A stretch of 64,000 nt of DNA from a virus. The notes beneath the pieces were generated by a model. The model worked only from the letters and a program-made list of their open reading frames with translations. It was not told the DNA's origin and did no database searches. The translations under genes were made by a program, and so were the position numbers. Shown in pieces: positions 3,621-58,764 of the stretch. The stretch is taken from IMG/VR virus record IMGVR_UViG_3300045988_117831. One strand, written 5' to 3'. Each line of letters opens with the position of its first letter. The stretch's first letter is position 1.

Positions 3621-4226
3621 ATGGACTGGAAAGACATAGGTAGTAAGATCGGCGCGGCAGCCCCGGCGTTGGGATCGCTCCTGGGTGGGCCTGCAGGCGC
3701 CGCCGTTGGCTCTATCGTCGCGACGGCGCTGGGGTCGAAGGCCGACCCAGCCTCAGTCGCGAGCGCTCTAGACGCGAATCCGGAAGCTCTAGCGCGCCTC
3801 GCCGAACTCCAGAGCGCCGAGCGCGTTCGTCTCCAGGAGCTTGCGATTCAAGCCGAACAAAATCGCCTTCAGTCTGAGCAGAATCAGCTCCAGGCCGAGC
3901 TTAGCCAGTTCGCCGCAGAGGCGGCAGACAGGGATTCGGCGAGGAGGCTTGCCGCGCAGCAGAACGATTTCGTTCGCCCGGCGATTACATTCGCTCTTCT
4001 GACAGGCTCCATTCTCATCATCATCGCAATCTTCACCTTCGGCCGCGAGGCGCTGATGGACCCGACTTCCTCTGTCGCCATCGGCACAATCATCGGCTAT
4101 TGGTTCGCCGAACTGAAGTCTGTTATGGCCTTCTATTTTGGCACAACCAAGGACGGATCGCGCCAGAGCACGGCATCCATCATCAACGCAGTCAAATCCC
4201 AAATACAGAAGGAATCGAAAGAATGA
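3621..4226 (+). CDS. hypothetical membrane protein (Gly/Ala-rich N-terminus, coiled coil, C-terminal TM helices)
   Basis: 201 aa. Hydrophobic stretches ITFALLTGSILIIIAIFTF and VAIGTIIGYWFA. Confidence 0.55.
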   Translation: MDWKDIGSKIGAAAPALGSLLGGPAGAAVGSIVATALGSKADPASVASALDANPEALARLAELQSAERVRLQELAIQAEQNRLQSEQNQLQAELSQFAAEAADRDSARRLAAQQNDFVRPAITFALLTGSILIIIAIFTFGREALMDPTSSVAIGTIIGYWFAELKSVMAFYFGTTKDGSRQSTASIINAVKSQIQKESKE

Positions 4227-28819: not shown

Positions 28820-28939
28820 CGTTAATTCGAAGAGTCGTGGACTATGGCTGTATTATATACGCAGTACATCTAAGGGTAAATAAGCGGAACAATAATTAGA
28901 TGTAGCCGTGACTGTTAACTTACATTATAATTTGTATTA

Positions 28940-29300
28940 TGATCTAATTACCAGTTTCCTCAGCCGCGAAAATCCGGTAATTTGGTCTCGGAAACTTGAC
29001 GGGATTTGTCTAAGCCTACTGCCGCGAGGCTTTCAACTCCTAAACTAATTCAAATTACCAATTTACCGATTAAAAATTGAATTTCAATACGTCTAGAGCA
29101 TATAGATTGACGTTATATTATAACGTTACTTATAGATGAATTCTATTGGAACGTTACTTCTAATTTCCCAGGCTATATACTTTTGAAGCATGCGGCTAAA
29201 TCGGAAATTAGGAACTGGCTCTGTTAAAGCCTCGCGGCAGTAGGATTTCCAAATTACTGCTATTTTCCGTAAACGGTAATTTGCGGCTATCCGGACTAGA
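28940..29300. repeat. AT-rich quasi-palindromic element R1 (inverted-repeat arms around an AT-rich centre), related to R2
   Basis: Perfect 18-bp inverted repeat CCTACTGCCGCGAGGCTT (29018) / AAGCCTCGCGGCAGTAGG (29228). Core CGGAAACTTGACGGGATTTGTCTAAGCCTACTGCCGCGAGGCTTTCAA...AAATTACCAATTTACC is shared with 48494-48575. Confidence 0.7.
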
Positions 29301-29468
29301 ATTTTTAGTCAGAATCCAGATTTTTCTCAGTATCATCGGCCAAAGCCATCAAGATGGCGAAGCCGATGATTGCCAAATCGATGGCGGCAAACTTCAGGCT
29401 GAAGAATCCGCCGTGAATATTGGCCCTGATTACATCGACCACGAGTCGGCGCCGGCACGTCTTGCGGT

Positions 29469-29693: not shown

Positions 29694-30533
29694 TCAAATG
29701 ATCGGTATCTTTCTGCACCTACAGTTAATCGCCCATCCTGGCGGCCCCTGGTCTGCTTTCGGACCCTCCCAAAGTCTGGGGTCATTCAGCTTGAACCTCT
29801 TCCCATCTTTCTCCAGGTGGGTGTGGCGAGGAGTCTTGCCGGCAGAAGAGTGTAGCCACTCGAACTCCTCGACTCCATTTTCCGCCATTCTCTCATCGCT
29901 CAGAGAACTGTAAAGCTTGCTTGTTTGATCTCTTGCGATGAGTTCGATTCGATCTTCAGAAAACTTCCCGACTTTGCGAAGTGCGTTAGTTATGCCGGAA
30001 GTTCCTTGCTCTTCCGGATTCGGGGAAGTCAGAGACAGCATTACTGATGTGTAAATCTTCTCGTGGACTTCCTCTTGGATCTTGGTGATGAGAGTATGAT
30101 TGTAAGTGGTTGCGGCCTCCAGGGTGTTCCTGACGCTCTCATTATACGCAGCTCGTGGCTGATCGACGCCGGCCACCGACAAGCTGTGAAGGGTCGCGGC
30201 AGTGGCGGCTTCTTCGGTCCGGTTGACGAACTCCGGGGCGATCTTGGCCGCGAAACCTTCAAAAATGCGGCTCCATCGCTGCTGTAGGCTTCGAAGGGTC
30301 ATCTTGAACAGGACGTTAACGGATTCGTCTCTGGCGAAGAACCGTTCGGCCGCAGGCTGGGACAGCGCCTTCTCAATCTCGTTTCGATAGTCGGAGATCA
30401 TGAGCTTGGACATATCCTTCATCTGCTTTCGATACCAGGCCTCGATTCCTGCCGATGGAATTATGGGCTTCCCTCTTCCGACTGGAAGAGGTGCCCGGCG
30501 CTCGCGCTTTTTGGAGGCCTTGAATGCCATCAC
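29694..30533 (-). CDS. minor head protein, Mu gpF / SPP1 gp7 family
   Basis: 279 aa. C-terminal ...HTHLEKDGKRF...PPGWAINCRCRKIP matches the conserved end of the Phage_Mu_F domain. Overlaps the portal stop. Confidence 0.7.
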   Translation of the reverse strand: MMAFKASKKRERRAPLPVGRGKPIIPSAGIEAWYRKQMKDMSKLMISDYRNEIEKALSQPAAERFFARDESVNVLFKMTLRSLQQRWSRIFEGFAAKIAPEFVNRTEEAATAATLHSLSVAGVDQPRAAYNESVRNTLEAATTYNHTLITKIQEEVHEKIYTSVMLSLTSPNPEEQGTSGITNALRKVGKFSEDRIELIARDQTSKLYSSLSDERMAENGVEEFEWLHSSAGKTPRHTHLEKDGKRFKLNDPRLWEGPKADQGPPGWAINCRCRKIPII

Positions 30534-32827
30534 TCGCCCCCGAATGGTTTGGTGGTGTCGCCGTTCGCCAGCCAGCGACGGAAAGCGGGCAGGTCAACTT
30601 CATGGATGGAGCCGAGACCATCCCAGCCCGGACGGAAGCAGGACAGATATCCGGACTTCGCATCGTTGATGTTGTTGAAGCCGAGCATACACTTGTGCTC
30701 GTCAAACTGACCTTCCTTGTTCACTTGGTTGACGACGAAGACCCGTTTGGATCCCAGATTCGGACCGACGAAGCAATCGACTTCATCCCCATCAGCGCCT
30801 TTCGTTCCCTTGATGAACCCGTAGTGGTGTTTCATCTGAACTCGCCAACTCCCATCCTTTCCTTGCCGAATGCTTCCGCGCGGATTTTCGATCAAGGTGG
30901 TTATTCCATTCACCTTGATTCTCTGGAGTTCCGAATGATCACGAGGCCCGATGATGCGGTTGGACGAAAACACCGAAGGCTCCATGCCAGACACGCCAGG
31001 TTGGGACGTGCGCTTTAAGCCAGGCGCATCATTGTGCTCTATGTCTACGCCGTCCGGCGCCTTAATGTCGTCCAGGTCTTGGAGCTTCGACAAAAGATCG
31101 ACCAACAAGTTCCGCAGCTCGGCCTTGGGGTCCGGTCGCGACGGCGGTTCAGCGGCCTCGCTGGCCCCTTCCTCGGCCGCTTTCGCGAGAGGCTTAGTCC
31201 CGCGTGGAGCGGCGGGAACCGGGCCGCCTGCGCCCTCTACGGCGCCCGCCTGGGCTTCGGCTCGCTCGGCTTCGCCTTTCGCCTTTGTCGACTGTGCACC
31301 GGCCTTCTCGAATTCGGCCAGGTTTTCCGGAGACATGCCCGGTTCGGTTTCTGCCTGATCGTCGGTGAGTCGGTTGTAGCCGGAACGCGGATCGTCGCGC
31401 AGACGCTCGCGAACTTCATCCGGAGACACAACGCCAGAGTTGATGTAGATTTCGTCGGTAGCGGCTTTCTTGTTGTTCAATTCGGCTTGTTGCTGGCTGG
31501 ACGTGGAGTCTACAGGATTCCAGACGATTTCCAGCTGCACATCGATTTCTTCCGACTTCGCCAGAAGCAAATAGTGGCGTTCAAGAAGTGGGTCGAATAT
31601 GTGCTCTTGAATGGACTCCAGTTCTTCGTGATAAGAAATCGTTTCGTGCTCACCAGTGGCATTGAATCCTTTTGGAGAAGTGCCGAGGAGCTTCGTGGCT
31701 GGAGTCTTGGCGATGGCCGCGACCAGCTGATATTGGTTCATGATGATGCTGTCGAAGTCGGCCAGGTTCGTGTCGAACTGCTCCATGCCTTCGTCAATTC
31801 CCAGAACTTTCACGCCGTGGTTATCACGGTTGGCGATCCAGAACGCCAGGCGAGCGTTGAAGGCCTCTTCGTTCGCGATGGCCTTCTCCACGTCAACGTG
31901 GATGGTGCTGGTTCGCTTCGACATGGCAAGCAGCGGGGCTTCGTTCGCCGTCCGTTCCGCTGCATACACGCGCTCATAGATTCTCTGGGTGAGCGGGATA
32001 CCGCCGAAGATGTATGTAGGCTTCAGGATATCTGGCGGCTGCGGTCCACGAACCACCACTAGGTGGCTGCGGTGATATTTTTTGCCGCTGATAATCCAGA
32101 AATCCGGCTCATAGAAATGTTCGGAAGACGGATCTGCCGTCGAGCCAGCAGTGAGCTGCGGCATTGCCCAGTATGGATCGATCTGGGAGATTCCCTTGTA
32201 GGAGCCGGGCGTGATTCCATCCGGATTGAACGGCTTTTCGTAGTAGTCCGGATCGTCAGACTCCACGACGAACAGCGCGATACGAACGCCGAAAACGTTC
32301 TTGAATCTGTTGAGTTCGACAAGGTTGTCTTTGACGCGAAACTCCATGTCGCGCCGGGCGATCAGCGCGCTTTGTTCATCGGATAGCTTCCTGCCGTCCG
32401 ATTTGAGTTCCCATCCGTTCCGTGCTGCGTCTTCCCCAGACATGGAACAAGCTTTGTCCACCAACCAGTGCTGGGAAATGATTGCGCAAGCTTGGTATCC
32501 GATAAACCCTTGGGAATTGTACCAGTCCTGCAACATAGTCGGGACGACATAGGGATTCTGGCCGCCCGCAGCAGCCTTCGCGGCCGGAGTTGGTCCATCA
32601 CCATACGCACTATCCATCGCTACAGATAGGCCCGGCTCCAGGAAATCTTTCACACTACGAATGACCGGGGTTTTCTCCGGCTCGACGTTCCAGCCGCGAA
32701 TCCTTCCCAGCTTGATCATGGGGTCGAGCGGATCGTGTTGAGGGATTTGTGCGACTTTCTCCGGCGCCGATTCCGAACAGGCAGCATTATCCTTTTTGCG
32801 CCCGAATATCCAGGAAAGTTTAAACAT
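30530..32827 (-). CDS. portal protein with C-terminal inorganic-pyrophosphatase-like domain
   Basis: 765 aa. The N-terminal ~500 aa is portal-like. An Ala/Glu-rich linker follows. The C-terminal ~165 aa carries HHYGFIKGTKGADGDEVDCFVGPN, resembling the family I PPase active-site region (YGFxxxTxxxDGDPxDVLV). Confidence 0.7.
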   Translation of the reverse strand: MFKLSWIFGRKKDNAACSESAPEKVAQIPQHDPLDPMIKLGRIRGWNVEPEKTPVIRSVKDFLEPGLSVAMDSAYGDGPTPAAKAAAGGQNPYVVPTMLQDWYNSQGFIGYQACAIISQHWLVDKACSMSGEDAARNGWELKSDGRKLSDEQSALIARRDMEFRVKDNLVELNRFKNVFGVRIALFVVESDDPDYYEKPFNPDGITPGSYKGISQIDPYWAMPQLTAGSTADPSSEHFYEPDFWIISGKKYHRSHLVVVRGPQPPDILKPTYIFGGIPLTQRIYERVYAAERTANEAPLLAMSKRTSTIHVDVEKAIANEEAFNARLAFWIANRDNHGVKVLGIDEGMEQFDTNLADFDSIIMNQYQLVAAIAKTPATKLLGTSPKGFNATGEHETISYHEELESIQEHIFDPLLERHYLLLAKSEEIDVQLEIVWNPVDSTSSQQQAELNNKKAATDEIYINSGVVSPDEVRERLRDDPRSGYNRLTDDQAETEPGMSPENLAEFEKAGAQSTKAKGEAERAEAQAGAVEGAGGPVPAAPRGTKPLAKAAEEGASEAAEPPSRPDPKAELRNLLVDLLSKLQDLDDIKAPDGVDIEHNDAPGLKRTSQPGVSGMEPSVFSSNRIIGPRDHSELQRIKVNGITTLIENPRGSIRQGKDGSWRVQMKHHYGFIKGTKGADGDEVDCFVGPNLGSKRVFVVNQVNKEGQFDEHKCMLGFNNINDAKSGYLSCFRPGWDGLGSIHEVDLPAFRRWLANGDTTKPFGGE

Positions 32828-36619: not shown

Positions 36620-37057
36620 ATGAAAAAGTTCTGTGTCGACATCACTAATGGTCTGGCCGGCTTCATCATCTGGGGCGGCGCAATCGTCCTGGCTGCTACC
36701 GTCTTCGTCATCGGCCCGCTGGCCCTCCTGCTGACCGGCGCCTGGGTTGTGTGTACGTCCGTAGTGTTCGCCCTCTGGTTCGCCGTCGCCGGCATCTACG
36801 AAGAGTCGCAAAAGCAGACCGAGTATCTTAAATCCCTGGTGTCGCTCCAGGCGTGTGAACGCGGCATCGGCTACGGCCCAGGAGACGCCGGTTGCAGCGC
36901 TAGCGCTCCGGCCGTTCCCGTAGAGCCCAAGCTCAGCCATCCCAAACTGAAGCCGGGCGCACAGCTCGCGGCCGCTGTCTTGTTCTTTGCCGCCCTCATC
37001 CTCTTGCTGGTAGCAGGTGATTGGATCTGGAATTTCTTCCAGTCGATGCCGAAATAG
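36620..37057 (+). CDS. hypothetical integral membrane protein (about 3 TM helices)
   Basis: Start MKKFCVD after AAGGAATCTGAAA. The upstream part of the listed ORF overlaps the previous gene. Confidence 0.5.
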   Translation: MKKFCVDITNGLAGFIIWGGAIVLAATVFVIGPLALLLTGAWVVCTSVVFALWFAVAGIYEESQKQTEYLKSLVSLQACERGIGYGPGDAGCSASAPAVPVEPKLSHPKLKPGAQLAAAVLFFAALILLLVAGDWIWNFFQSMPK

Positions 37058-37065
37058 TGGAAGAA

Positions 37066-37143
37066 AGTGCTTTACTTCCATTCTGAATGAAGGCAGAATA
37101 GCTCCATTGAAATGCGAAACCCTTCAGACAAAAGGAACCGACC
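37066..37143 (+). promoter_or_regulatory. repeated promoter/leader copy A
   Basis: GTGCTTTACTTCCATTCTGAATGAAGGCAGAAT...CAAAAGGAACCGACCATG. Confidence 0.55.
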
Positions 37144-40831: not shown

Positions 40832-40865
40832 AACCGTTCGTCGGTGAACATAATTTTATTGTTAA

Positions 40866-40938
40866 TACACTTTACTTCCATTCTGACCAACGGCATAATC
40901 TCTTCATCGAAACGAACAAACACCTGGAGGGTAAGACG
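40866..40938 (+). promoter_or_regulatory. repeated promoter/leader copy B
   Basis: CACTTTACTTCCATTCTGACCAACGGCATAATCTCTTCATCGAAACGAACAAACACCTGGAGG. Confidence 0.6.
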
Positions 40939-41097: not shown

Positions 41098-41185
41098 TCA
41101 ACATTCGGATGCGGAAATGCCTTCCATGGGAGGAAATATTCCTGACGGGCATACCGTTCGTCCACTTTGAGAAATATTTCACAAT

Positions 41186-41263
41186 TCTGCTTTACTTCCA
41201 TTCTGAATAGCGTCATAATCTCTTCATCGAACGCGAAACACTCCAAAACAGAGGAACGCAGAA
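41186..41263 (+). promoter_or_regulatory. repeated promoter/leader copy C
   Basis: CTGCTTTACTTCCATTCTGAATAGCGTCATAATCTCTTCATCGAACGCGAAACACTCCAAAACAGAGGAACGCAGAAATG. Confidence 0.6.
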
Positions 41264-45811: not shown

Positions 45812-46507
45812 ATGCTGTACATCTGGGAAGACCAAGATATCCACCACAACATCGAAACTCTGGCTTTCGTCGGCGAGTCCAGGTCCAACTACACAATCAT
45901 CGGATTCGAATTCGGTGATCTGTTCGCCATCGCCAAAGAGTCCACTGGTCAGATCGTGGTAAGCCCGCTGACTCGGCAAGGGATGGCGGAATGGCTCACC
46001 ATGAACGGCCATATTCCTGCCGAGATCATCAGCCACGGACCCGGCAACCACAAAAACCCGTATGTCTGGGCGGACTCCATCGTCCTGAACAATCTGCCGA
46101 CCCATCCGAACATGCGCTGCGTTACCACTCCATTCACGGGCTTCGATCCAGCAGAACCGGGTGGCGACAAGACTGCCATAGGTCAAGTCATCAAGGACAA
46201 CCGATCCGCCGAAATGTTCGGCGACAATCCGTCGCAGCGGTCGCAGCGGTCCTTTGGCGGCATAGCGCCGAGTCTTCCTGATCTGCCCGATCTTCCGGAG
46301 CCGCCCAGGGCGCCGATGGCTCCTCCAGGCCTGCCGGTTCCGCCCGCGCCTCATGCGCCAAAAGCGCCTCCAGCTCCGCAGGTAAGCAGGCAGTCGGAAT
46401 CGCTGGCGCTTCGGTCGGGTGCGATCCCTTCCAGCCCGGCGCCCGCATCGGACAACGACAGGCCCGGCGATCCGCCCATCGAGCCTATCACAGTCCCGAC
46501 TTTCTGA
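45812..46507 (+). CDS. hypothetical protein with Pro-rich C-terminal region
   Basis: 231 aa. RBS GAGGAGCGAGCC. C-terminus PDLPDLPEPPRAPMAPPGLPVPPAPHAPKAPPAP. Confidence 0.5.
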   Translation: MLYIWEDQDIHHNIETLAFVGESRSNYTIIGFEFGDLFAIAKESTGQIVVSPLTRQGMAEWLTMNGHIPAEIISHGPGNHKNPYVWADSIVLNNLPTHPNMRCVTTPFTGFDPAEPGGDKTAIGQVIKDNRSAEMFGDNPSQRSQRSFGGIAPSLPDLPDLPEPPRAPMAPPGLPVPPAPHAPKAPPAPQVSRQSESLALRSGAIPSSPAPASDNDRPGDPPIEPITVPTF

Positions 46508-46599
46508 CATCACCCCAACGCCAACAAACACCGCAGCCTGCTCTGCGGTGTTTTCACATCAGACAACCGTTCGTCGGCTTTGTGATCAATCTGATGAAA

Positions 46600-46696
46600 T
46601 AGATGTAGACACGCAGCATCGACCTAGGCATAATCTCTTTCAACGGGGCGACAAACTGAAGCCCAAACGAAATCTTCCAAAACAGAGGATCGCAAA
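46600..46696 (+). promoter_or_regulatory. repeated promoter/leader copy F (degenerate -35)
   Basis: GGCATAATCTCTTTCAACGGGGCGACAAACTGAAGCCCAAACGAAATCTTCCAAAACAGAGGATCGCAAAATG. Confidence 0.45.
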
Positions 46697-47370: not shown

Positions 47371-47480
47371 GAGGGTTAGGCTACGACTTCCTAGAACCGC
47401 CCTAGAATCGTTTTCGTCCCTTCCCGCTACCGTCGCCTTAGTTCGGTCCGATTCGGGCCTAGAACGATGTTATTTTATGT

Positions 47481-48131
47481 CTAAATGGGGTTGGCGCGGT
47501 CTTCCTCGGTCGGTTCCGGAGACGGAGACGGGAAATCTCCCTCTTCACCTTCCGGCACATAGCCATTGGCTTCGGCCGCAGCAGCGACGGTCGCGGTCTG
47601 AGCCTCGGCTTCTGATGCGTAGAAATCGGCCAAACCGCGACCGATCCGGGTCTTGCCCGACTCGTCCACGAACGTGATTTCAGCCAGAACGTTCAATTCC
47701 TTGATGGCCGACAGACGGCTGGAGTCCTTGACGGTGGGGTCACGAACCATTTGGAGGAGTTCGTGGAGCGCCGTCTTTGGATTCCACAAATCGGACGTTT
47801 TGGTCGCGTTCAACTTGGCCTTGAACTGCTTGCGATAGTACGGGTTGGACTCCATCGCGAAGATGCGGGCCTGCGCGGGACCGTCCATATGCTCCTCGCC
47901 CCAGATGGCCCGGAAGACCCGCCAGGAGCTGTAACCTTGGACGCGCAGGTCGATGTACAGGTCGAATCGCTTTTGGTTGATCGCCGCGAAATGCGGGTCT
48001 GCGAATTCCTGTGGCGTGACTAGATCGTCGGGGCTGTAGAATTTGGTCATTTGGTGCTGCGTCCCTGAGTTCGATTCTGGAGTCGTCGTGGTGGCTTGGT
48101 TGGCGGATGGCCCTGGTGCTCTGCGCGACAC
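47481..48131 (-). CDS. candidate terminase small subunit
   Basis: 216 aa. TPQEFADPHFAAINQ...LRVQGYSSWRVFRAIWG...PAQARIFAM loosely parallels the conserved AGYS...A helix-turn-helix region of P27-type small terminases. Adjacent to the palindromic element R2. The start is probably the internal MTKFYSPDD. Confidence 0.35.
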   Translation of the reverse strand: MSRRAPGPSANQATTTTPESNSGTQHQMTKFYSPDDLVTPQEFADPHFAAINQKRFDLYIDLRVQGYSSWRVFRAIWGEEHMDGPAQARIFAMESNPYYRKQFKAKLNATKTSDLWNPKTALHELLQMVRDPTVKDSSRLSAIKELNVLAEITFVDESGKTRIGRGLADFYASEAEAQTATVAAAAEANGYVPEGEEGDFPSPSPEPTEEDRANPI

Positions 48132-48340
48132 TGAGTATGGCGCGATTGTACTATGGGGCCAGGGATCGCGTCTATGGGCTGCTTGTGGGTGGCCTGTAGG
48201 TCTGGGTGGGTTTGATGGTGAATGAGTGTTAGGTGGTGTTATAGGATGTTATATGGGCGGTCTGCTGGTGGGTGAGGGTCGAGTCGGCGGTTGGTGGGTG
48301 AGGATGGCGGTGAGGGTTTGGATTGAGTGTTAAATCGAAT
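48130..48340. repeat. G+T-skewed iteron-like region
   Basis: GGTGGGTGAGG twice (48268, 48294). GGTGAGGGT twice. Many GGTG/GTGGG units on the + strand. Non-coding. Confidence 0.6.
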
Positions 48341-48479
48341 GTTAGAAATATGTCCAGCTGAGCGATTCTGTCGCGCTCCCAAATTTCCGGTTCCGTTCGT
48401 CGAGTTTTGGCACTTGCCGCTTAGTCCGCCGTGGTGTTGCCGCGACCCATGGATTGGAAGTCCGGAAGTTTCCGGCGAC

Positions 48480-48790
48480 CCTGCCGCGAACTGGCTGGAA
48501 TCGGAAACTTGACGGGATGTGTACAAGCTTAGTGCCGCGAGGCTTTCAAATACTAAAGTATACCAAATTACCAAATTACTATTAATTTAATTAATTTTAA
48601 AGATAGGTAACGTCCGTGATAGATTTTTTCTATTAGGATTGTGCAATCGATTTTCGCTGTAGTATACTTTTGCGGCTGCATCCGAAACCGGAAATTATCC
48701 GTTAAAGCCCTTCAAACCCACGCGGCACTAAGGCTAGGCCCTAATTACCGGTTTCGTAAATTACCGGTAAGCTCGACGCGGCCGACCCCA
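48480..48790. repeat. AT-rich quasi-palindromic element R2, paralogous to R1
   Basis: CGGAAACTTGACGGGATGTGTACAAGCTTAGTGCCGCGAGGCTTTCAAATACTAAAGTATACCAAATTACCAAATTAC. Inverted partners CTTAGTGCCGCG (48527) / CGCGGCACTAAG (48719). AT-rich centre 48570-48660. Confidence 0.7.
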
Positions 48791-48958
48791 AAAATCCAGT
48801 CAGAATCGGCGATTTTCCACAATTCATCCAATCACCACACAAAATCCTCGATCCACCGTCCACGAACTTTCCATAACGCAACATCACCACCCCATCCTAA
48901 TTACCGGATAGCTTCCGAATCTCACTCGTCCACCACCGAAATTAATGTACGCCGCACC

Positions 48959-48990
48959 AAAGAAAAAGACCGCCCGAAGGCGGCCTAGTC
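48959..48990 (-). terminator. minus-strand terminator downstream of the primase-helicase gene
   Basis: Minus strand: GGCCGCC-TTCG-GGCGGTC followed by TTTTTCTTTGG. Confidence 0.55.
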
Positions 48991-49011
48991 CAAGTACACT
49001 CCGCCACTACA

Positions 49012-50751
49012 TCAGAAATCCTCGCCCAAAATCTTGGCTCGCTCGGCCCGGACTGCCCGAATTTTTGCCATGGCAGCCTCATCAGTGATGTCCGGGTCGC
49101 CCTTTCTCAGCAAGTACACAAGCGCATCATTGAACGGCGGCAACGTCGTGTGCATGCCATTCGTCCATCCAGGTGCAACCTTATCGACAGGTAAGCACCA
49201 ACCAGCAAGGCCGTTCTTATTCGGGATGAATCCCAGCGCCTTCAGGTGCGGAGTAAGGTGACGAGAAATCGGCTTCTTCCTGGCGAGAATATCGAACCAT
49301 TTCAGAATGGAAACGGTGTCAGCCCTCCATCCAGGATTCTTGGCATTCCTGCCAGGCTTGATCTCTTCGAACTCGCAACTGATCAGAACATTGATCAGAT
49401 ACATGTCAATCGTATCGTCACGAACCACGCCACGCGCATTCTCCATTTCCGAAATAGAGAATTTCTGGACTTCGCGGTTCGCTTCCGACACCATATCCAG
49501 GTATCCATCGACACCATGCTCTTCGATCCATGCGCGGCATTCAGCCATCGCTTGCCAGAATTTGCGGCCGAAGTCGGTGAAGTCCACCTTGAACGGTTCA
49601 TTACCATCGCCCGGCTTAACCCAGTTCGGCTTTCCATCTTCGTCGGGAAGTTGTGCCACGAACATCGGATAGAATCGACGGTTGCCGGAGTCGTCCCGCT
49701 GGAGTCCATCGTATCCGTTGCCGTCCATGATGGTGATCCATTGTCGCTTGATCGTTTCGCCAGGCTCAAACTTCTGGTCGAATGTATCCGAAGATCGCAC
49801 CAAGAACTCCTTGATGCGTTCCATATCGCCCTTTTTGAAGCCGGACATTTCCCCGACGTTCGCAATGACCGAGTTGCCGGTGATATTGCGCAGGAATGGC
49901 GTCTGGTCGTGTCGGCTCAGATCGAGCTGGACTGGAGCCAGATCGCGACCGCCAGACAGTTCTTTGCAGATCAACAAGCCGAAATATGATTTCCCCGCAT
50001 CCTGCCCACCAATCAACGCCAGCGAGATCGGCGCCGAGATTCCAGGATAGTTGATGCGGCAGTACAGGCTCAGCCAGAAATACCTGCTTACCATCCGGTT
50101 CAATTCGGTGTCGAACGGCTTGAAAAGATCGATCAGCAACGTGCTAATTCGCTCTTCGCCGTCCCAATCCGGTATCTTCTTCTCAAACGTTTCGATCAAA
50201 GAGTTGCGGCGATATCGACGCGCCCACACGCAGCAAGTCTCAATCGTCTTCTTAATCGAGGGATCGTCCAAGGCCGCAGCCGCGAGGGCGTCCATCAGGT
50301 CAATCGGATCGAGGGTCTTGTTGTTGAACGCCACGCCGCGATGGTCCACCAGCCGGCCGCGAAACTCGTCGAAGTGCGGGTGTGGGACGGTTCCGTCGCC
50401 CTTACAGAACAACGTATCATAGACCGCGAGGTAGTTGCTGTCTGAAGTCGAGCTGTACTTGGTGATAAAGTCATCGAACGGTCCTTTCACCAGCCGGCTG
50501 ACCGGAAGATCAAAGGCCTGGTCGAGCATCAACAACCGCGCTCGCTTCCTCAAGTCTGGTTCAGCATACGCCTCGGCGTATCTTGCCGCCTTTTGCGCGC
50601 GATGCGTTTCGTTCCTCGCAATCGCATCATCGGCCGCCTTGCTCGCGGCGGTCATCAAAGGGTCCATTCCAGCATCTTCTATCTGCGTGAGATCAAACTC
50701 ACTGGACCCTGATTCGCCATCATCAAAAATATTATCTTCGTCGATAATCAT
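49012..50751 (-). CDS. primase-helicase, VirE / P4-alpha C-terminal-like (P-loop NTPase)
   Basis: 579 aa. Walker A GGQDAGKSYFGLLI. Architecture resembles VirE-family phage/plasmid primase-associated helicases. Confidence 0.65.
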   Translation of the reverse strand: MIIDEDNIFDDGESGSSEFDLTQIEDAGMDPLMTAASKAADDAIARNETHRAQKAARYAEAYAEPDLRKRARLLMLDQAFDLPVSRLVKGPFDDFITKYSSTSDSNYLAVYDTLFCKGDGTVPHPHFDEFRGRLVDHRGVAFNNKTLDPIDLMDALAAAALDDPSIKKTIETCCVWARRYRRNSLIETFEKKIPDWDGEERISTLLIDLFKPFDTELNRMVSRYFWLSLYCRINYPGISAPISLALIGGQDAGKSYFGLLICKELSGGRDLAPVQLDLSRHDQTPFLRNITGNSVIANVGEMSGFKKGDMERIKEFLVRSSDTFDQKFEPGETIKRQWITIMDGNGYDGLQRDDSGNRRFYPMFVAQLPDEDGKPNWVKPGDGNEPFKVDFTDFGRKFWQAMAECRAWIEEHGVDGYLDMVSEANREVQKFSISEMENARGVVRDDTIDMYLINVLISCEFEEIKPGRNAKNPGWRADTVSILKWFDILARKKPISRHLTPHLKALGFIPNKNGLAGWCLPVDKVAPGWTNGMHTTLPPFNDALVYLLRKGDPDITDEAAMAKIRAVRAERAKILGEDF

Positions 50752-51089: not shown

Positions 51090-52166
51090 CTACTCCTCGC
51101 CGATGTGACGGCGGTTAATGCGTTCCAATTGTTCTACGATATAGGGCAGGACGACTTCATCGGTGAAGGCCGCCCATGTCCGTCGATGCTCTTTGCGGCA
51201 AGTATCGTGCCCGCATCCGAACACATATTCGTGCTCGGCGCCAGGTATCGGTCCGCGAAAGTATGCGCCGAAAGGATCGCCGTTGGTGTGCTCGTCGCCC
51301 CAGGGACAGCGGATGCGGTATTTGCCGGACATATTCTGCTGGACCTGGCCGCCTGCCGCTTCTCCCATCTTGTATTTCGTGCAGATGTGCTCGGCATACT
51401 TCAGCCATACTTGGTCATACACCCAATCGTCGCGGTTTATCTCCACCTTCTTCATCTGTGGCATAATGATGCGGACGCCGAAGGCCTGCGCGATTTCCTC
51501 TGGCGAGTAGCGCTTGGAATAGTCGGCGCTGTACAGGCGCACGAGTTCGGGTTTGCCGTTTTCGTCGGCATATTTGAACTTGCCGTCTTTCCCGCGCTTG
51601 TTGTTGAAGCCGAATGGCATCCGGCCGTAACGGCTGACGTCCTTGACGGTGTTGTCGCCGCCTTTCTTTAGCACCTGGTCCACGAACGAATAGAGCAGCG
51701 CCTTGAACTGGAGCATGTGGGACATCGGCTCTTTGAAGAAATACCAGAACTGGTAGTTGTTCGGCGAAGTCTCTACAATCGCGGTCGGCTCTAGTCGCTC
51801 GCGGAACTCGTCGCGGTCGAAGTCGCCCTTGGACCCTTTGCCTGAGCCGATGTCATCGACCATCAACGCCAGGCCGTGGCCGAAAGAGGCTTCGCCGCGC
51901 CAGTATCGCATCTGGCCGGTCTTCGGGTTGGGCGTCTTGATGGATGACGAGATGCAAGCGTAGGCGTTGGATCGGGAGTTTATGTATTTCCCTTCCTTCC
52001 AGGGCACAGGCCACCAGCCGGCGTTGAGCTTGCGGCCGTTCTCGTCGGTTTGGACTGTGGCCTCTTCAGCGTAGCCGACCATTACCCGTTCGTCGTCCGG
52101 AATCCCTCGGCCGAGTTCGCGCAGGAACTCTTCGGCCTGGGCCAGTCTTATTTCGTGAGGCTTCAT
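51090..52166 (-). CDS. bifunctional DNA primase-polymerase (PrimPol/AEP-like) with C-terminal zinc-binding region
   Basis: 358 aa. LALMVDDIGSGKG (DxD-type acidic motif), ETSPNNYQFWYFF, and C-terminal CPWGDEHTNGD...FGCGHDTC. Confidence 0.55.
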   Translation of the reverse strand: MKPHEIRLAQAEEFLRELGRGIPDDERVMVGYAEEATVQTDENGRKLNAGWWPVPWKEGKYINSRSNAYACISSSIKTPNPKTGQMRYWRGEASFGHGLALMVDDIGSGKGSKGDFDRDEFRERLEPTAIVETSPNNYQFWYFFKEPMSHMLQFKALLYSFVDQVLKKGGDNTVKDVSRYGRMPFGFNNKRGKDGKFKYADENGKPELVRLYSADYSKRYSPEEIAQAFGVRIIMPQMKKVEINRDDWVYDQVWLKYAEHICTKYKMGEAAGGQVQQNMSGKYRIRCPWGDEHTNGDPFGAYFRGPIPGAEHEYVFGCGHDTCRKEHRRTWAAFTDEVVLPYIVEQLERINRRHIGEE

Positions 52167-56662: not shown

Positions 56663-57556
56663 ATGGAACAGAAAGACCAGAACGAGCAGACCCAAGGCGA
56701 AGAGCTGACCAAGGAACAAGCAGCCGCCCTGCGCAAGGCCGAGAAGGCCGCTGAGCGTCAACGTAAAGAGCGCGAGCGCGCCGAGAAGGCCGAGGCCAAG
56801 GCCAAGGAAGCCGAACAGAAGAAAGCCGAGCGCGAAGAGAAGCGTAAGGCCGAGCGCGAGAAGAAAGAAGCCGAGCGCGCCGAGAAGGCGAAGGAAAAGG
56901 CCGCAGCCAAGGAAGCCGAGCGCGCTGAAAAGGCCAAGGCGAAGGAAGCCGAGCAGGCCGAGAAGGCGAAGGCGAAGGAAGCCGAGCGCGAGCAGAAGAA
57001 GGCCGAGAAGGAAGCCGAGCGCGCCAAAAAGGCCGAAGAGAAGAAGGCCGCCCAGGAAGCTCAGAAAGTAGCTCGCGAAGAAGAGCGCAAGCGCCTGGCC
57101 GAGCAGAAGAAGGCTGAGCGCGAAGCCGAGAAGCAGCGCCGCAAGGAAGAGCAGGAAGAGCGCCGCAAGAAGGCCGAAGCCCGCCGCGAAGACCTGAAGT
57201 CCAACGGCTCGCGTCGCCCCCGCGCCACTCACTTCATCCCGACCGGCGACGGCCATGGCACTCCGCAGGCCTTCTCGACTCGCGGCAAGGTGTTCGCATA
57301 CATCAACGAGCACTGCACCGTTGGTGAGCCGGTCGAAATCGAATCCTTCGGCGATAAGGTGGCCCATCTTCTCTATGGCACCTCGGTCCGCAGCTACCTG
57401 AGCAAGCTGGAAATCATGGGCTGGGTCGATCTGGTTGCCATCGCTTCGAAGGAAGACGAAGCTGGCCAGGGCGATGACGAGAAGGCCGATGACGAAGGCC
57501 AGGAGCACGGAGGTGAAGATCAGGGCGCCGATGGTTCCGAAGGTGAGGAGGAGTAA
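56663..57556 (+). CDS. Lys/Ala/Glu-repeat protein (KAKEAE-type tandem repeats) with acidic C-terminal tail
   Basis: 297 aa. About 170 aa of ...AEKAKAKEAEQAEKAKAKEAEREQKKAEKEAERAKKAEE... encoded by imperfect ~33-bp DNA repeats. Globular C-terminal region, then DDEKADDEGQEHGGEDQGADGSEGEEE. Confidence 0.6.
   Translation: MEQKDQNEQTQGEELTKEQAAALRKAEKAAERQRKERERAEKAEAKAKEAEQKKAEREEKRKAEREKKEAERAEKAKEKAAAKEAERAEKAKAKEAEQAEKAKAKEAEREQKKAEKEAERAKKAEEKKAAQEAQKVAREEERKRLAEQKKAEREAEKQRRKEEQEERRKKAEARREDLKSNGSRRPRATHFIPTGDGHGTPQAFSTRGKVFAYINEHCTVGEPVEIESFGDKVAHLLYGTSVRSYLSKLEIMGWVDLVAIASKEDEAGQGDDEKADDEGQEHGGEDQGADGSEGEEE
56790..57130 (+). repeat. imperfect ~33-bp tandem DNA repeats encoding the KAKEAE protein repeats
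   Basis: Recurrent GAGAAGGCGAAGGCGAAGGAAGCCGAGCGCG-type units. Confidence 0.6.
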
Positions 57557-57675: not shown

Positions 57676-58677
57676 ATGATTCCTGATCAGAAAGTAATCA
57701 TCGTAGGTGCCGGACTCGCCGGACTGATCGCCGCGCATCGCTTTCCTCAAGCCCAAATCATCGACGCGGCGACGCCGGAGAACAAGGAGCGCCACAACGC
57801 ACTTCTGCGATTCCGCTCGCCAGTGATTGGCCAACTCACCGGCATCCCGTTCCGCAAAGTCACTGTACACAAAGCTATCTACATCGACGGCGAGTTCATT
57901 TCCCAGCCGCGCATCGACCACTGCAACATGTACTCCAGGAAAGTAACGGGCGGCCTGTCGGACCGGTCCATCTGGAATCTGGCGACTGAAAAGCGTTGGA
58001 TCGCACCGGCCGACTACTATGAGCAGCTGGTGGCTAAGCTTGCGAATCGTATCACTTGGAGCCGTCCTTTCGACGCCTCTTTCTTCCAGTATCTTCGCCG
58101 GCAAGATGACCACGTGAATATCATCAGCACCGCGCCGTTCCGCGCCAATCTGGCTGCGGCAGGGCTGGACCTGGGAATCGACCCGTCATTCGGTGAAGGA
58201 ACCTCCATCATCGTGAGTCGATACAAGCTCTCCATCCCCTGTGATGTCTTCCAGACCGTGTATTTCCCTGGTCCTAAAGTGGGAACGTTTCGAGCGTCCA
58301 TCACCGGTGATACTCTGATCGTCGAATCCATCACTAAAGGGATAGTGGAGACTTTAGATGGTAAAATCGAAACCATCGAATGGGACAGCGACTGGGATAT
58401 GGATTACGTTTGCGCGGCCTTCGGCATCAGAAGGAAACAGCTCATCGAAGATGGCGAGCCGACCATCCAGACCAAAGGCAAAATCATTCCGCTCGGTCGC
58501 GACGAGCGCGAATCCATGATCTGGAATCTCACCCATGAGGCTGGCATCTTCTCGCTCGGCCGGTTCGCTACCTGGCGCAACGTCCTTCTGGATGATCTGG
58601 TTTCGGACATGGACGTCATCGAGCGCCTGATGACTTCTTCGTCTTATCAGAAGGCCAAGAAAATGTTCGTGAAGTAA
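57676..58677 (+). CDS. FAD/NAD(P)-binding Rossmann-fold oxidoreductase-like protein (UGM / amine-oxidase-like)
   Basis: Start MIPDQK after AAGGGA. VIIVGAGLAGLIAAH dinucleotide-binding motif. C-terminal GRFATWRNVLLDDLVSDMDVIERL resembles the C-terminal FAD-contacting segment of that fold. Confidence 0.5.
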   Translation: MIPDQKVIIVGAGLAGLIAAHRFPQAQIIDAATPENKERHNALLRFRSPVIGQLTGIPFRKVTVHKAIYIDGEFISQPRIDHCNMYSRKVTGGLSDRSIWNLATEKRWIAPADYYEQLVAKLANRITWSRPFDASFFQYLRRQDDHVNIISTAPFRANLAAAGLDLGIDPSFGEGTSIIVSRYKLSIPCDVFQTVYFPGPKVGTFRASITGDTLIVESITKGIVETLDGKIETIEWDSDWDMDYVCAAFGIRRKQLIEDGEPTIQTKGKIIPLGRDERESMIWNLTHEAGIFSLGRFATWRNVLLDDLVSDMDVIERLMTSSSYQKAKKMFVK

Positions 58678-58685
58678 TTTACAAA

Positions 58686-58764
58686 AGTGCTTTACTTCTG
58701 GATCAGGTGGGCGTAATATTCCCTCATCGAAACGCGAACCCCTTCAACCAAAAGGAATCGACAA
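58686..58764 (+). promoter_or_regulatory. repeated promoter/leader copy G
   Basis: AGTGCTTTACTTCTGGATCAGGTGGGCGTAATATTCCCTCATCGAAACGCGAACCCCTTCAACCAAAAGGAATCGACAAATG. Confidence 0.6.

What the first reader, a model, noticed from the sequence alone, without database searches (positions are those of the whole stretch)
48480..48790. R2, the second copy of the palindromic element, beside a candidate small terminase with mirrored GT-rich and CA-rich arms
R2 has the conserved core (48494-48575), inverted partners CTTAGTGCCGCG / CGCGGCACTAAG, and an AT-rich centre.

It lies in an 880-bp non-coding gap between the primase-helicase gene (ends 49012) and the 216-aa candidate small terminase (47481-48131).

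The flanks are compositionally mirrored. 48130-48340 is strongly G+T-rich on the + strand and carries GGTGGGTGAGG twice. 48800-48960 is C+A-rich (CATCACCACCCCATCC...). This gives roughly 800 bp of large-scale dyad symmetry.

A small-terminase gene next to a structured repeat region is the classic layout of a pac site. A role as a replication origin, given the primase and PrimPol upstream on the same strand, is equally plausible.
Basis: partly seen in the sequence, partly recalled or inferred. Interest (0 to 1): 0.7.

Follow-up and report, generated by a model that had tools for sequence, protein, structure and literature searches.

The report
Packaging start site beside small terminase
This stretch is where a PB1-like Pseudomonas phage starts cutting and packaging its DNA, just upstream of its small-terminase gene; published end-mapping had already placed the site here provisionally, but a conserved second copy elsewhere in the genome remains unexplained.

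Summary
The window is a Pbunavirus (PB1-like Pseudomonas aeruginosa phage), 98.5% identical to 14-1 and SMS29.

- R2 has 22-nt inverted arms around the lowest-GC 100 nt of the window.
- Its two flanks are the most G+T-rich and most C+A-rich 160-nt stretches in all 64 kb.
- A paralogue, R1, lies 19.5 kb away.

**The candidate terminase is real.** The "216-aa" ORF is the 189-aa small terminase, about 99% identical to PDB 7UXE from phage E217.

**A packaging end maps inside R2.**
- The published putative pac position of JG024 (59,376) and nucleotide 1 of the Ab29 record both map to window 48649.
- Packaged DNA runs from there toward terS.
- Relatives with only about 40% TerS identity (Wifcevirus, Kylevirus) have their terminal-repeat left end at the equivalent AT-rich centre.
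- Those relatives also have the mirrored flanks and an R1-like second copy.

**R2 also carries a mapped promoter.** The 14-1 terS promoter P040 starts transcription at about window 48545.

**Best reading:** R2 is the pac region plus the distal terS promoter.

**Main rival, possibly also true:** R1 and R2 are SaPI-type replication origins for the Rep-like helicase encoded just upstream.

The pac reading was already proposed in the literature. The R1/R2 pairing and its conservation across genera appear undescribed. Interest is moderate.

The parts
49012..50751 (-). Rep-like self-loading helicase, annotated 'DNA primase' in relatives. It is the last gene of the replication operon.
   Evidence: Pfam VapE-like domain, E 2.9e-22. 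phrog_4630. Matches PDB 7PDS, the SaPI1 Rep-DNA complex, at E 8.9e-14.
48959..48986 (-). Intrinsic terminator that closes the replication operon.
   Evidence: Terminator scan. Annotated as a terminator in CEB_DP1, SMS29 and JG024. Coordinates.
48800..48960 (.). Upstream flank. It is C+A-rich on the + strand, so G+T-rich on the gene strand, and is hypervariable and mosaic between phages.
   Evidence: Contains the most C+A-rich 160-nt stretch of the window. Only 45% of columns are invariant among six genomes, in three allelic types.
48711..48732 (.). Upstream inverted-repeat arm (gene strand: ...CTTAGTGCCGCGTGGGTTTGAA).
   Evidence: The TGCCGCG core is kept in all alleles, in R1, and in three other genera.
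48649..48650 (-). Mapped packaging end: cut between 48650 and 48649 (gene strand CTACAGCGAAAAT^CGATTGCACAATCC). Packaged DNA runs toward lower coordinates, that is, toward terS.
   Evidence: JG024 59,376 and Ab29 nucleotide 1 both align to 48649. Literature. Other records place terS at 602-1168, implying the same start.
48548..48647 (.). AT-rich centre.
   Evidence: 23% GC, the lowest 100-nt stretch in the 64 kb.
48545..48585 (-). Distal terS promoter, equivalent to 14-1 P040: -35 TTAATA at 48585-48580, extended -10 TGGTATACT ending at 48557, TSS near 48545. The short repeats GTAATTTG GTAATTTG fill the spacer.
   Evidence: Promoter scan. 14-1 ONT-cappable-seq TSS 59399 and transcription unit TU045, which carries gp76. 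Mapped to the window.
48528..48549 (.). Downstream inverted-repeat arm (gene strand TTGAAAGCCTCGCGGCACTAAG), lying at +1 to about +18 of the P040 transcript.
48501..48516 (-). Conserved box CCCGTCAAGTTTCCGA, shared exactly with R1 (28988-29003).
48742..48765 (.). Two short repeats (AATTACC on the + strand) upstream of the cut. Further copies lie at 48565-48580 and 48898-48905.
   Evidence: Eight of the nine AATTACC sites in the window lie in or beside R1 or R2; none of 100 shuffles reached nine sites. One-mismatch copies are listed.
48130..48340 (.). Strongly conserved non-coding leader. It is G+T-rich on the + strand, so C+A-rich on the gene strand, with CCTCACCCACCA repeats at 48266-48277 and 48292-48303.
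   Evidence: Contains the most G+T-rich stretch of the window. Conservation exceeds third codon positions. Frameshifting indels and a 39-nt tandem duplication in SCUT-S1 argue against coding.
48137..48174 (-). Proximal terS promoter, equivalent to 14-1 P041: TAGACG, 18-nt spacer, TACAAT; TSS near 48137.
47481..48050 (-). terS, the small terminase (189 aa). It is a single-gene unit between terminators.
   Evidence: PDB 7UXE, E 5e-125. 14-1 annotation. Transcription units TU045 and TU046 carry only gp76.
28955..29320 (.). R1, the paralogue of R2, between the MuF-like head gene cluster and the head protease/scaffold gene. Arms at 29012-29033 and 29226-29247; AT-rich centre at 29046-29145.
   Evidence: No TSS lies inside it. 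No listed record starts in it.
28844..28880 (-). Sigma-70-type promoter of the protease/scaffold operon, equivalent to 14-1 P014. It lies downstream of R1.

Best explanation
R2 is the packaging-initiation (pac) region of a headful-packaging Pbunavirus, and the distal promoter of the small-terminase gene is built into it.

**Layout, read on the gene strand (the window - strand):**
1. The replication operon ends at a terminator.
2. A variable G+T-rich stretch follows, with short GGTAATT repeats and one arm of an inverted repeat (TGCCGCG).
3. Next comes a centre of about 100 nt at 23% GC.
4. Then two more repeats, the second arm (CGCGGCA), a conserved box and a conserved C+A-rich leader of about 400 nt.
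5. Last come the proximal promoter and terS.

**Proposed mechanism.** On concatemeric DNA, terminase (the TerS decamer plus TerL) makes the first cut of a packaging series at the upstream edge of the AT-rich centre, between 48650 and 48649. It then packages toward terS. Later ends are set by headful cutting, which gives a circularly permuted, terminally redundant population.

**What is shown.**
- The position and polarity of the end, from published mapping aligned here.
- The identity of TerS.
- The two promoters.
- Conservation on the packaged side only.
- The same layout in relatives.

**What is inferred.**
- That TerS, rather than another protein, reads the repeats and arms.
- That the mirrored G+T-rich 3'-ending strands on both sides of the break matter for handling the two DNA ends.
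- That TerS bound to the repeats inside the P040 spacer feeds back on its own transcription.
For: **Genus and TerS**
- The window is 98.5% identical to Pbunaviruses.
- TerS is about 99% identical to the solved E217 small terminase.

**Terminus**
- JG024 59,376 and Ab29 nucleotide 1 both align to window 48649.
- The JG024 position rests on 36 of 161 long reads over 30 kb starting there, plus a roughly 15-kb XbaI pac fragment.
- For SCUT-S1, PhageTerm placed the Pac site 'in an AT-rich region'.
- BrSP1, vB3530, E2005-C and PA11P1 records start at the same place.
- No listed record starts in R1.

**Relatives with about 40% TerS identity**
- The PhageTerm terminal-repeat left end lies about 360 nt upstream of terS in a 12-17% GC centre.
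- In Mansfield that centre is flanked by genus-specific short repeats and TGCCGC/GCGGCA arms, with G+T-rich sequence upstream and C+A-rich sequence downstream. For Kyle, repeats, arms and the C+A-rich downstream side were seen; its upstream side was not examined for skew.

**Selection**
- 79-87% of non-coding columns downstream of the cut are invariant, against 62-77% at third codon positions and 45% upstream of the cut.

**Unique flanks**
- The two keto-skew extremes of the whole window bracket R2.

**Transcription**
- P040 and P041 drive terS-only transcripts.
Against: - E217 TerS showed no appreciable DNA binding in vitro, and its authors suggested T4-like, sequence-independent packaging (review PMC9611059).
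- PhageTerm found no significant peak for phage Banzai.
- All published pac calls for this genus are described by their authors as tentative or putative.
- The core of the element is duplicated. R1 has the same arms, repeats and AT-rich centre but is not known to be cut. A simple 'TerS reads this module' model does not explain that.
- The inverted repeat is only 15-18 of 23 complementary in R2. In four of eight genomes the upstream arm carries the R1-type sequence, so arm pairing as such is not maintained in R2.
Confidence: 0.78

Rival explanations
1. R2 and R1 are replication origins of the SaPI type. The Rep-like self-loading helicase encoded just upstream (49012-50751) would bind the short repeats or arms on both sides of the AT-rich centre, melt it and load two hexamers. 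The RepB'-type primase (51090-52166) would then prime synthesis. On this view the DNA end at R2 is a second function of the same site, or a consequence of origin activity. This reading is not exclusive of the pac reading.
For: - The 579-aa protein matches SaPI1 Rep (PDB 7PDS, E 8.9e-14) and has a VapE-like domain.
- The gene order primase, small ORF, Rep, then R2 mirrors the SaPI order pri-rep-ori.
- SaPI origins lie immediately downstream of rep and consist of short iterons on both sides of a central AT-rich region (PMC9371898).
- The Banzai authors name this protein as the likely initiator. The SCUT-S1 authors say the AT-rich pac region 'could be a replication origin'.
- R1 and R2 are the two lowest-GC spots of the window.
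- The short repeats occur almost only in R1 and R2, and they differ between genera while staying the same in both copies within a genus. That implies one shared binding protein.
- Two copies are harmless for an origin but awkward for a cut site.
- The distance between the arms is invariant: 213 nt in R1 and 187-188 nt in R2.
Against: - In Wifcevirus FEC19 the rep gene is 8.4 kb and about 20 genes away from R2. The element stays next to terS, not next to rep.
- The published cumulative GC-skew minima of Pbunaviruses lie in the DNA polymerase gene and at a strand-switch region, not at R1 or R2. The window's own skew shows no inflection at R2.
- In R2 the GGTAATT repeats all point the same way, whereas SaPI iterons point in opposite directions across the centre.
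- An origin alone does not explain the fixed virion DNA ends, or the terminal-repeat boundary at the same spot in relatives.
Confidence: 0.35
2. R2 is only a transcription control region: the distal terS promoter plus operator-like repeats for a phage or host regulator. R1 would be a matching upstream control region for the head-gene promoter. On this view the DNA ends are incidental.
For: - A capped-RNA TSS (P040) lies inside R2, with the repeats in the promoter spacer.
- In Pbunavirus and in Kyle, each of R1 and R2 sits 100-450 nt upstream of a sigma-70-type promoter and a late gene; for ECML-117 only the two gaps and their sequences were seen, and no promoter was scored there.
- CEB_DP1 and JG024 annotators predicted promoters in both elements.
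Against: - No TSS lies inside R1 in 14-1, so the shared module is not itself a promoter.
- Regulation alone does not explain coincident, independently mapped ends in several Pbunaviruses (JG024, Ab27-29, SCUT-S1) and terminal-repeat boundaries in two further genera.
- The repeat motif is absent from the other 47 mapped 14-1 promoters.
Confidence: 0.1
3. The inverted repeat works through structure: either a DNA cruciform or a long-range RNA helix closing a domain of about 165-190 nt.
For: - Single-strand folds pair the arms. The z-score is -3.0 for R2 and -6.0 for R1.
- R1 shows one compensated change, G>A in one arm with C>T in the other, in SCUT-S1 and phiVader. Several mismatches would be G-T wobbles on the gene strand.
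Against: - The arms are 161-192 nt apart, which is unfavourable for cruciform extrusion.
- The R2 arms carry 5-8 mismatches in 23. Two of three allelic types break the two positions that look compensatory between R1 and R2.
- The P040 transcript starts at the downstream arm, so it contains only one arm.
- A terminator precedes R2.
- No Rfam family matches.
Confidence: 0.05

Closest known systems
Putative pac site of Pseudomonas phage JG024 (position 59,376), and the genome ends set for Ab27, Ab28, Ab29 and SCUT-S1
   Same: It is the same locus. JG024 59,376 and Ab29 nucleotide 1 align to window 48649. Both belong to the same genus as the window. The site sits 599 nt upstream of the same terS.
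   Different: Those papers report only a coordinate, or 'an AT-rich region'. They do not describe the arms, the short repeats, the mirrored flanks, the embedded promoter, the R1 paralogue or the conservation in other genera.
P1 pac and SPP1 pac (pacL-pacC-pacR). This comparison rests on my own knowledge of Sternberg & Coulby and of Chai/Alonso, not on a test run here.
   Same: Short repeated recognition motifs lie on both sides of a central cleavage region. The site is adjacent to or overlaps the small-terminase gene. Packaging is headful and runs one way from the cut.
   Different: No sequence similarity. Dam-site control as in P1 was not looked for here. TerS binding has not been demonstrated. 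A second, apparently uncut copy of the module exists, which P1 and SPP1 do not have.
SaPI replication origin with its Rep self-loading helicase (PMC9371898)
   Same: A Rep homologue is encoded just upstream. Short repeats flank a central AT-rich region immediately 3' of rep. The repeats are lineage-specific.
   Different: The R2 repeats all point the same way. In Wifcevirus the element is not next to rep. The site carries a virion DNA end. There are two copies per genome. No replication data exist.
SPP1 oriL/oriR: two homologous origins in one pac phage. Cited from my own knowledge (Missich et al. 1997).
   Same: Two distant paralogous repeat-plus-AT-rich elements in one phage genome, one next to the initiator gene and one in the late region.
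   Different: In SPP1 neither origin coincides with pac. Here one of the two copies carries the packaging end.

Membership tests
pac site of a headful-packaging phage | A fixed DNA end in a fraction of virion genomes maps to the site. | tested here: met
   The published JG024 long-read start and pac fragment, and the Ab29 record start, both align to window 48649. I could not re-analyse the raw reads.
pac site of a headful-packaging phage | The genome population is circularly permuted and terminally redundant. | not testable with these tools
   Literature only: JG024, PhiR26 and Banzai. An early report of non-permuted ends contradicts this.
pac site of a headful-packaging phage | The site lies within or beside the small-terminase gene. 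| tested here: met
   The cut is 599 nt upstream of the terS ATG, with no gene between. TerS identity comes from PDB 7UXE.
pac site of a headful-packaging phage | The small terminase binds the site specifically. | not testable with these tools
   The only report is negative: E217 TerS showed no appreciable DNA binding in vitro, and the substrate is not known to me.
pac site of a headful-packaging phage | The recognition sequence is unique in the genome. | tested here: inconclusive
   The core module is duplicated as R1. However, the cut context CTACAGCGAAAATCGATTG and the skewed flanks are unique to R2.
SaPI-type origin (Rep self-loading helicase) | A Rep homologue is encoded in the genome. 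| tested here: met
   PDB 7PDS at E 8.9e-14 over residues 191-365, and Pfam VapE-like domain.
SaPI-type origin (Rep self-loading helicase) | The origin lies immediately downstream of rep. | tested here: inconclusive
   Met in Pbunavirus and Tabernariusvirus. Not met in Wifcevirus, where rep is 8.4 kb away. R1 is never next to rep.
SaPI-type origin (Rep self-loading helicase) | At least two iterons lie on each side of a central AT-rich region, pointing in opposite directions. | tested here: inconclusive
   Repeats on both sides and an AT-rich centre are present. The TGCCGCG/CGCGGCA arms are opposed, but the GGTAATT repeats of R2 all point the same way. Wifcevirus R1 has opposed repeats.
SaPI-type origin (Rep self-loading helicase) | Rep binds and melts the site, and replication starts there. 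| not testable with these tools
   No data exist. The published GC-skew minima lie elsewhere.
Sigma-70-type promoter | A mapped primary 5' end lies downstream of -35 and -10 hexamers. | tested here: met
   14-1 P040 (TSS 59399) maps to window 48595-48546 with one mismatch. The hexamers are TTAATA, 17-nt spacer, TATACT with an upstream TG.
Known RNA family (Rfam) | A match to a curated covariance model. | tested here: not met
   No match at E up to 1 over 47900-49100, on either strand.

The most novel reading that the evidence does not exclude
The R module is a replication origin for the SaPI-Rep-like helicase, kept in two copies in at least three genera. Terminase would use one of these origins (R2, marked by its unique skewed flanks and its position beside terS) as the entry point for packaging. 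Replication initiation, terS transcription and the first packaging cut would then share one roughly 350-bp nucleoprotein site. R1 would act as an origin only, or as a terminase/Rep-bound regulator of the head operon.
Probability: 0.3. Interest if true: 0.65.

Novelty: new member of a known kind. Interest (0 to 1): 0.4.

Why it matters
Pbunaviruses are among the phages most used in Pseudomonas phage-therapy work.

- **Safety and engineering.** Where and how they start packaging governs generalized transduction risk, how genomes should be opened for annotation, and how they can be engineered or rebooted. A defined pac region (cut at 48650|48649, conserved packaged-side half, embedded terS promoter) gives concrete targets for pac-plasmid, mutagenesis and TerS-binding experiments. 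That matters because E217 TerS showed no DNA binding without a defined substrate.
- **An open question.** The conserved second copy, R1, in front of the head protease gene is found in three genera with genus-specific repeats. It points to a shared DNA-binding factor and to a possible link between origin and packaging that has not been examined.

Tried and rejected
- **Pattern scan of IMG/VR** with a 15-mer from the conserved core. It returned mostly chance hits and only one Pbunavirus contig.
- **TerS-profile scan of IMG/VR.** It found only phages already in GenBank.
- **Rfam.** No match.
- **Chi-site idea for the G+T-rich flanks.** An exact E. coli Chi (GCTGGTGG) sits at 48264 in the right orientation, but the octamer occurs 11 times in the window. 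The Pseudomonas Chi I recall (GCTGGCGC) is absent near R2. I therefore dropped it as a specific claim. Only the orientation argument remains: the G+T-rich strand ends 3' at the break on both sides.
- **CTGGG 'phage-specific promoter' motif in R1.** It is present in the window, 14-1 and Banzai but is CATGGG in three other genomes, and no TSS maps there.
- **Coding potential of ORF 48239-48574, and of JG024 gp77 and SCUT-S1 S1_078.** Rejected because of frameshifting indels between close relatives.
- **Covariation between the arms as proof of pairing.** The two apparently compensatory differences between R1 and R2 are broken in four of eight R2 copies.
- **Right boundary of the Mansfield terminal repeat.** It has no R-like element.
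- **FBPa35 as a natural R1 deletion.** The same deletion removes most of the protease gene, so it is uninformative.
- **Papers not held.** The E217 terminase paper and Ceyssens 2009 could not be read.

Full report
**What the window is.** Region 47400-49100 is 97-98.5% identical over its full length to dozens of Pbunavirus (PB1-like) Pseudomonas aeruginosa phages, including sortsol, SMS29 and 14-1, and it matches 299 records in all. The window runs antiparallel to the usual 14-1 and JG024 orientation, so the genes around the finding are on the - strand. Below, 'gene strand' or 'forward' means the window - strand.

**Checking the observation.**
- The inverted arms are 48528-48549 and 48711-48732: 22 nt, 86% complementary.
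- R2 aligns to R1 over 105 nt at 77% (48496-48600 with 28983-29087). Islands of homology extend over about 330-400 nt.
- The R2 centre (48548-48647, 23% GC) and the R1 centre (29046-29145, 24% GC) are the two lowest-GC 100-nt stretches in the 64 kb.
- The mirrored composition is real and extreme. The most G+T-rich 160-nt stretch of the whole window is 48172-48331 (keto skew +0.60). The most C+A-rich is 48818-48977 (-0.44). The sd is 0.10.
- GGTGGGTGAGG occurs only at 48267 and 48293.
- The short motif AATTACC has nine sites in the window, and eight are in or beside R1 or R2. None of 100 shuffles reached nine.

**Two corrections.**
- The terminase gene starts at ATG 48050 and encodes 189 aa. 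The non-coding gap is therefore 961 nt.
- The palindrome is imperfect.

**The flanking genes.**
- The '216-aa candidate small terminase' matches PDB 7UXE, the cryo-EM decamer of the phage E217 small terminase, at E 5e-125 with about 99% identity over residues 28-216.
- A review of that work states that E217 terS lies about 58 kb from terL, that overexpressing TerS reduces infectivity, and that no appreciable DNA binding was seen in vitro.
- In 14-1 the gene is a single-gene unit between terminators.
- The upstream 'primase-helicase' has a VapE-like domain. It matches PDB 7PDS, the Rep1-DNA complex of a staphylococcal pathogenicity island, at E 8.9e-14.
- The next large gene upstream is a RepB'-type primase.

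**A DNA end maps inside R2.** Three papers place Pbunavirus genome ends or a pac site provisionally.
[quoted passage not shown] - Ipoutcha 2024 found that 36 of 161 Nanopore reads over 30 kb start at JG024 59,376 +/- 5. They also saw an extra XbaI fragment of about 15 kb that fits a pac fragment from that position.

I aligned JG024 and the two ends of the Ab29 record to the window. JG024 59,376 and Ab29 nucleotide 1 both fall on window 48649. The cut lies between 48650 and 48649, in gene-strand context CTACAGCGAAAAT^CGATTGCACAATCC, and the packaged DNA runs toward terS. BrSP1, vB3530, E2005-C and PA11P1 records start at the same place. None of 45 sampled records starts in R1, and 296 of 299 carry R1 intact. 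Against this, PhageTerm gave no significant peak for Banzai.

**Transcription.** The supplementary tables of the 14-1 ONT-cappable-seq study list three relevant primary 5' ends. I mapped them to the window.
- **P040** (TSS 59399; window about 48545) lies inside R2. Its -35 is TTAATA. Its spacer is made of the repeats GTAATTTG GTAATTTG. Its extended -10 is TGGTATACT. The transcript begins at the downstream arm.
- **P041** (TSS 59807; window about 48137) is the proximal promoter.
- **P014** (TSS 13257; window about 28844) lies downstream of R1.

Both terS transcription units contain only gp76. No TSS on either strand lies inside R1. R2 therefore holds a real promoter, but promoter activity is not what R1 and R2 share.

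**Conservation within the genus.** I aligned eight R2 and six R1 copies.
- From the replication-operon terminator to about 20 nt before the cut, R2 is hypervariable, with three allelic types. Only 45% of columns are invariant and mean identity is 70%.
- From CTACAGCGAAAAT onward, the 600 non-coding nt down to the terS ATG are 79% invariant, and the core is 87% invariant. Third codon positions in the flanking genes are 62-77% invariant.
- Single-base indels and a 39-nt tandem duplication in SCUT-S1 exclude coding.
- Selection therefore acts on the packaged side. The break in conservation coincides with the mapped cut.
- The upstream arm of R2 is CTTAGTGCCGCG in four genomes and CCTACTGCCGCG (the R1 type) in four, while the downstream arm stays CGCGGCACTAAG. 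The R2 palindrome is thus 15-18 of 23.
- R1 is 19-22 of 23, with one compensated change.
- The distance between the arms never varies: 213 nt in R1 and 187-188 nt in R2.

**Conservation beyond the genus.** TerS homologues at about 40% identity occur in phages of Escherichia, Pantoea, Serratia, Xanthomonas, Burkholderia and others.
- **Mansfield (Wifcevirus).** The genome is opened at a PhageTerm-predicted 3,673-bp terminal repeat, and terS starts at nucleotide 361. At least six other Wifcevirus records start at the same nucleotide.
- **Across the Mansfield junction.** In order one finds a G+T-rich stretch, ACGGATGAT repeats with a TGCCGC arm, a 12-17% GC centre holding the end, more repeats with a GCGGCAAT arm, a C+A-rich leader, and terS.
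- **Kyle (Kylevirus).** Its repeats (GGTTATT, AATATCC), TTGCCGCA/TTGCGGCAA arms, a C+A-rich leader and a sigma-70-like promoter before terS follow the same plan, with a terminal repeat of about 3.6 kb; the stretch upstream of its cut was not examined for G+T skew.
- **A second copy in both.** Each genus has an R1-like paralogue in the gap upstream of the protease/scaffold gene. In ECML-117 it shares 46 nt at 96% plus inverted repeats. In Kyle it shares 104 nt at 79%, spanning the end position.
- **Repeat distribution.** In the stretches examined, the genus-specific repeats occur only in these two elements.
- **Tabernarius.** It shows rep, then a gap with ATAGTCA repeats and GCCGCGC arms, then a small ORF, then a TerS homologue.

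The repeats differ between genera but match between R1 and R2 within each genus. Both copies must therefore be read by the same co-evolving protein, and both are functional.

**Best reading.** R2 is the pac region. The direct evidence is the coincident, independently mapped end with the right polarity next to terS. Supporting evidence is the homologous position of the terminal-repeat left end in relatives, and selection confined to the packaged side. The anatomy, with short repeats on both sides of a central cleavage region beside terS, resembles the P1 and SPP1 pac sites as I know them. I did not test that resemblance here. Because the repeats fill the P040 spacer, whichever protein binds them should also control distal terS transcription. 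That fits the reported sensitivity of E217 to TerS dosage, but it is inference.

**The mirrored flanks.** They are unique to R2 and are arranged so that the strand ending 3' at the break is G+T-rich on both sides. Possible roles include handling of the two ends (protection or strand invasion) and terminase-binding repeats (CCTCACCCACCA). On the gene strand the leader RNA is also C-rich and G-poor. I could not tell these apart. A specific Chi-site explanation failed.

**The main rival.** The origin reading has gained weight and may hold alongside pac.
- For it: SaPI origins lie immediately 3' of rep and consist of short iterons on both sides of an AT-rich centre where two Rep hexamers are thought to load. 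The phage has the homologous Rep, the gene order pri-rep-R2, and two copies of the module. Two copies are natural for origins and awkward for cut sites.
- Against it: in Wifcevirus rep is 8.4 kb from R2, with about 20 genes between and no other repeat-plus-AT-rich element there. Published skew minima are elsewhere. The R2 repeats all point one way. An origin alone does not explain virion ends.

**Minor rivals.** A purely regulatory role and a structural (cruciform or RNA) role are less likely, for the reasons given in the rival section.

**Novelty and score.** TerS, the approximate pac position and the promoters are all published. The central interpretation is therefore confirmed rather than new. 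I did not find the following described in the papers I could search:
- the anatomy of the site;
- the sharp boundary between the variable and conserved halves at the cut;
- the unique skewed flanks;
- the R1/R2 pairing and its conservation in three genera.

I rate it a new, better-defined member of a known kind, with moderate interest. It carries an open and testable question about whether the origin and the pac site are one and the same.

Noticed in passing
window 28955-29320 (R1): R1 is a paralogue of the pac-region module. It sits upstream of the head protease/scaffold gene and has better-kept inverted arms (19-22 of 23) and the second-lowest GC in the window. No TSS lies inside it and no record starts in it. 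Wifcevirus and Kylevirus have an equivalent copy at the same syntenic position. Its function is unknown.
   Followed up: partly
window 48670-49011, compared with 48051-48669: Conservation between Pbunaviruses switches abruptly about 20 nt upstream of the mapped cut. The unpackaged side is mosaic (three allelic types, 45% invariant columns). The packaged side is 79-87% invariant. In JG024, SCUT-S1, Banzai and phiVader the upstream half of R2 looks R1-like, which suggests exchange between the two copies or recombination driven by the DNA end.
   Followed up: partly
L110 (SCUT-S1), leader equivalent to window ~48300-48340: SCUT-S1 has a 39-nt tandem duplication that adds one more CCACCATCGTCGCCCACCAACCGCC... 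repeat unit to the C+A-rich leader. The copy number of this repeat therefore varies.
   Followed up: no
window 37051-37111, 40851-40911, 41171-41231, 58671-58698: A repeated motif, GCTTTACTTCC...N...(C/A)ATAAT(A/C)TC, matches the mapped sigma-70-type promoters of 14-1, such as P006 and P028 in the ONT-cappable-seq table. These look like a family of promoters with an unusual -35 (CTTTACTTCC).
   Followed up: partly
window 30530-32827 (-): The portal protein carries a C-terminal inorganic-pyrophosphatase-like domain: Pfam InPase, E 3e-43, residues 635-753.
   Followed up: no
window 56745-57130 (+): Degenerate 33/45-nt coding repeats rich in GAAG/GCCGAG, which encode Lys/Glu/Ala-rich sequence, lie inside the 297-aa ORF 56663-57556.
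   Followed up: no
L137 (FBPa35, ON857938.1), record 45839-46647: This 62.3-kb record lacks R1, most of the protease/scaffold gene and the C-terminal part of the MuF-like gene. That points to a defective variant or an assembly error, so it says nothing about whether R1 is dispensable. FBPa21 (62.5 kb) conversely lacks a full R2 match.
   Followed up: partly
window ~48470-48480; also L113, L114, L136: A further CGCGGCA copy (TTCGCGGCAGGG) follows the conserved box in both R1 and R2. A GCGGCTAA-like motif (GCGGACTAAGCGGCAA in the window) recurs downstream of the AT-rich centre in Kyle, Mansfield and tabernarius.
   Followed up: no
L134 (Mansfield 3650-3900): The right boundary of the 3,673-bp terminal repeat has no R-like element. 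About 170 nt beyond the boundary, outside the repeat, lies a run of six CGACCCA repeats.
   Followed up: no
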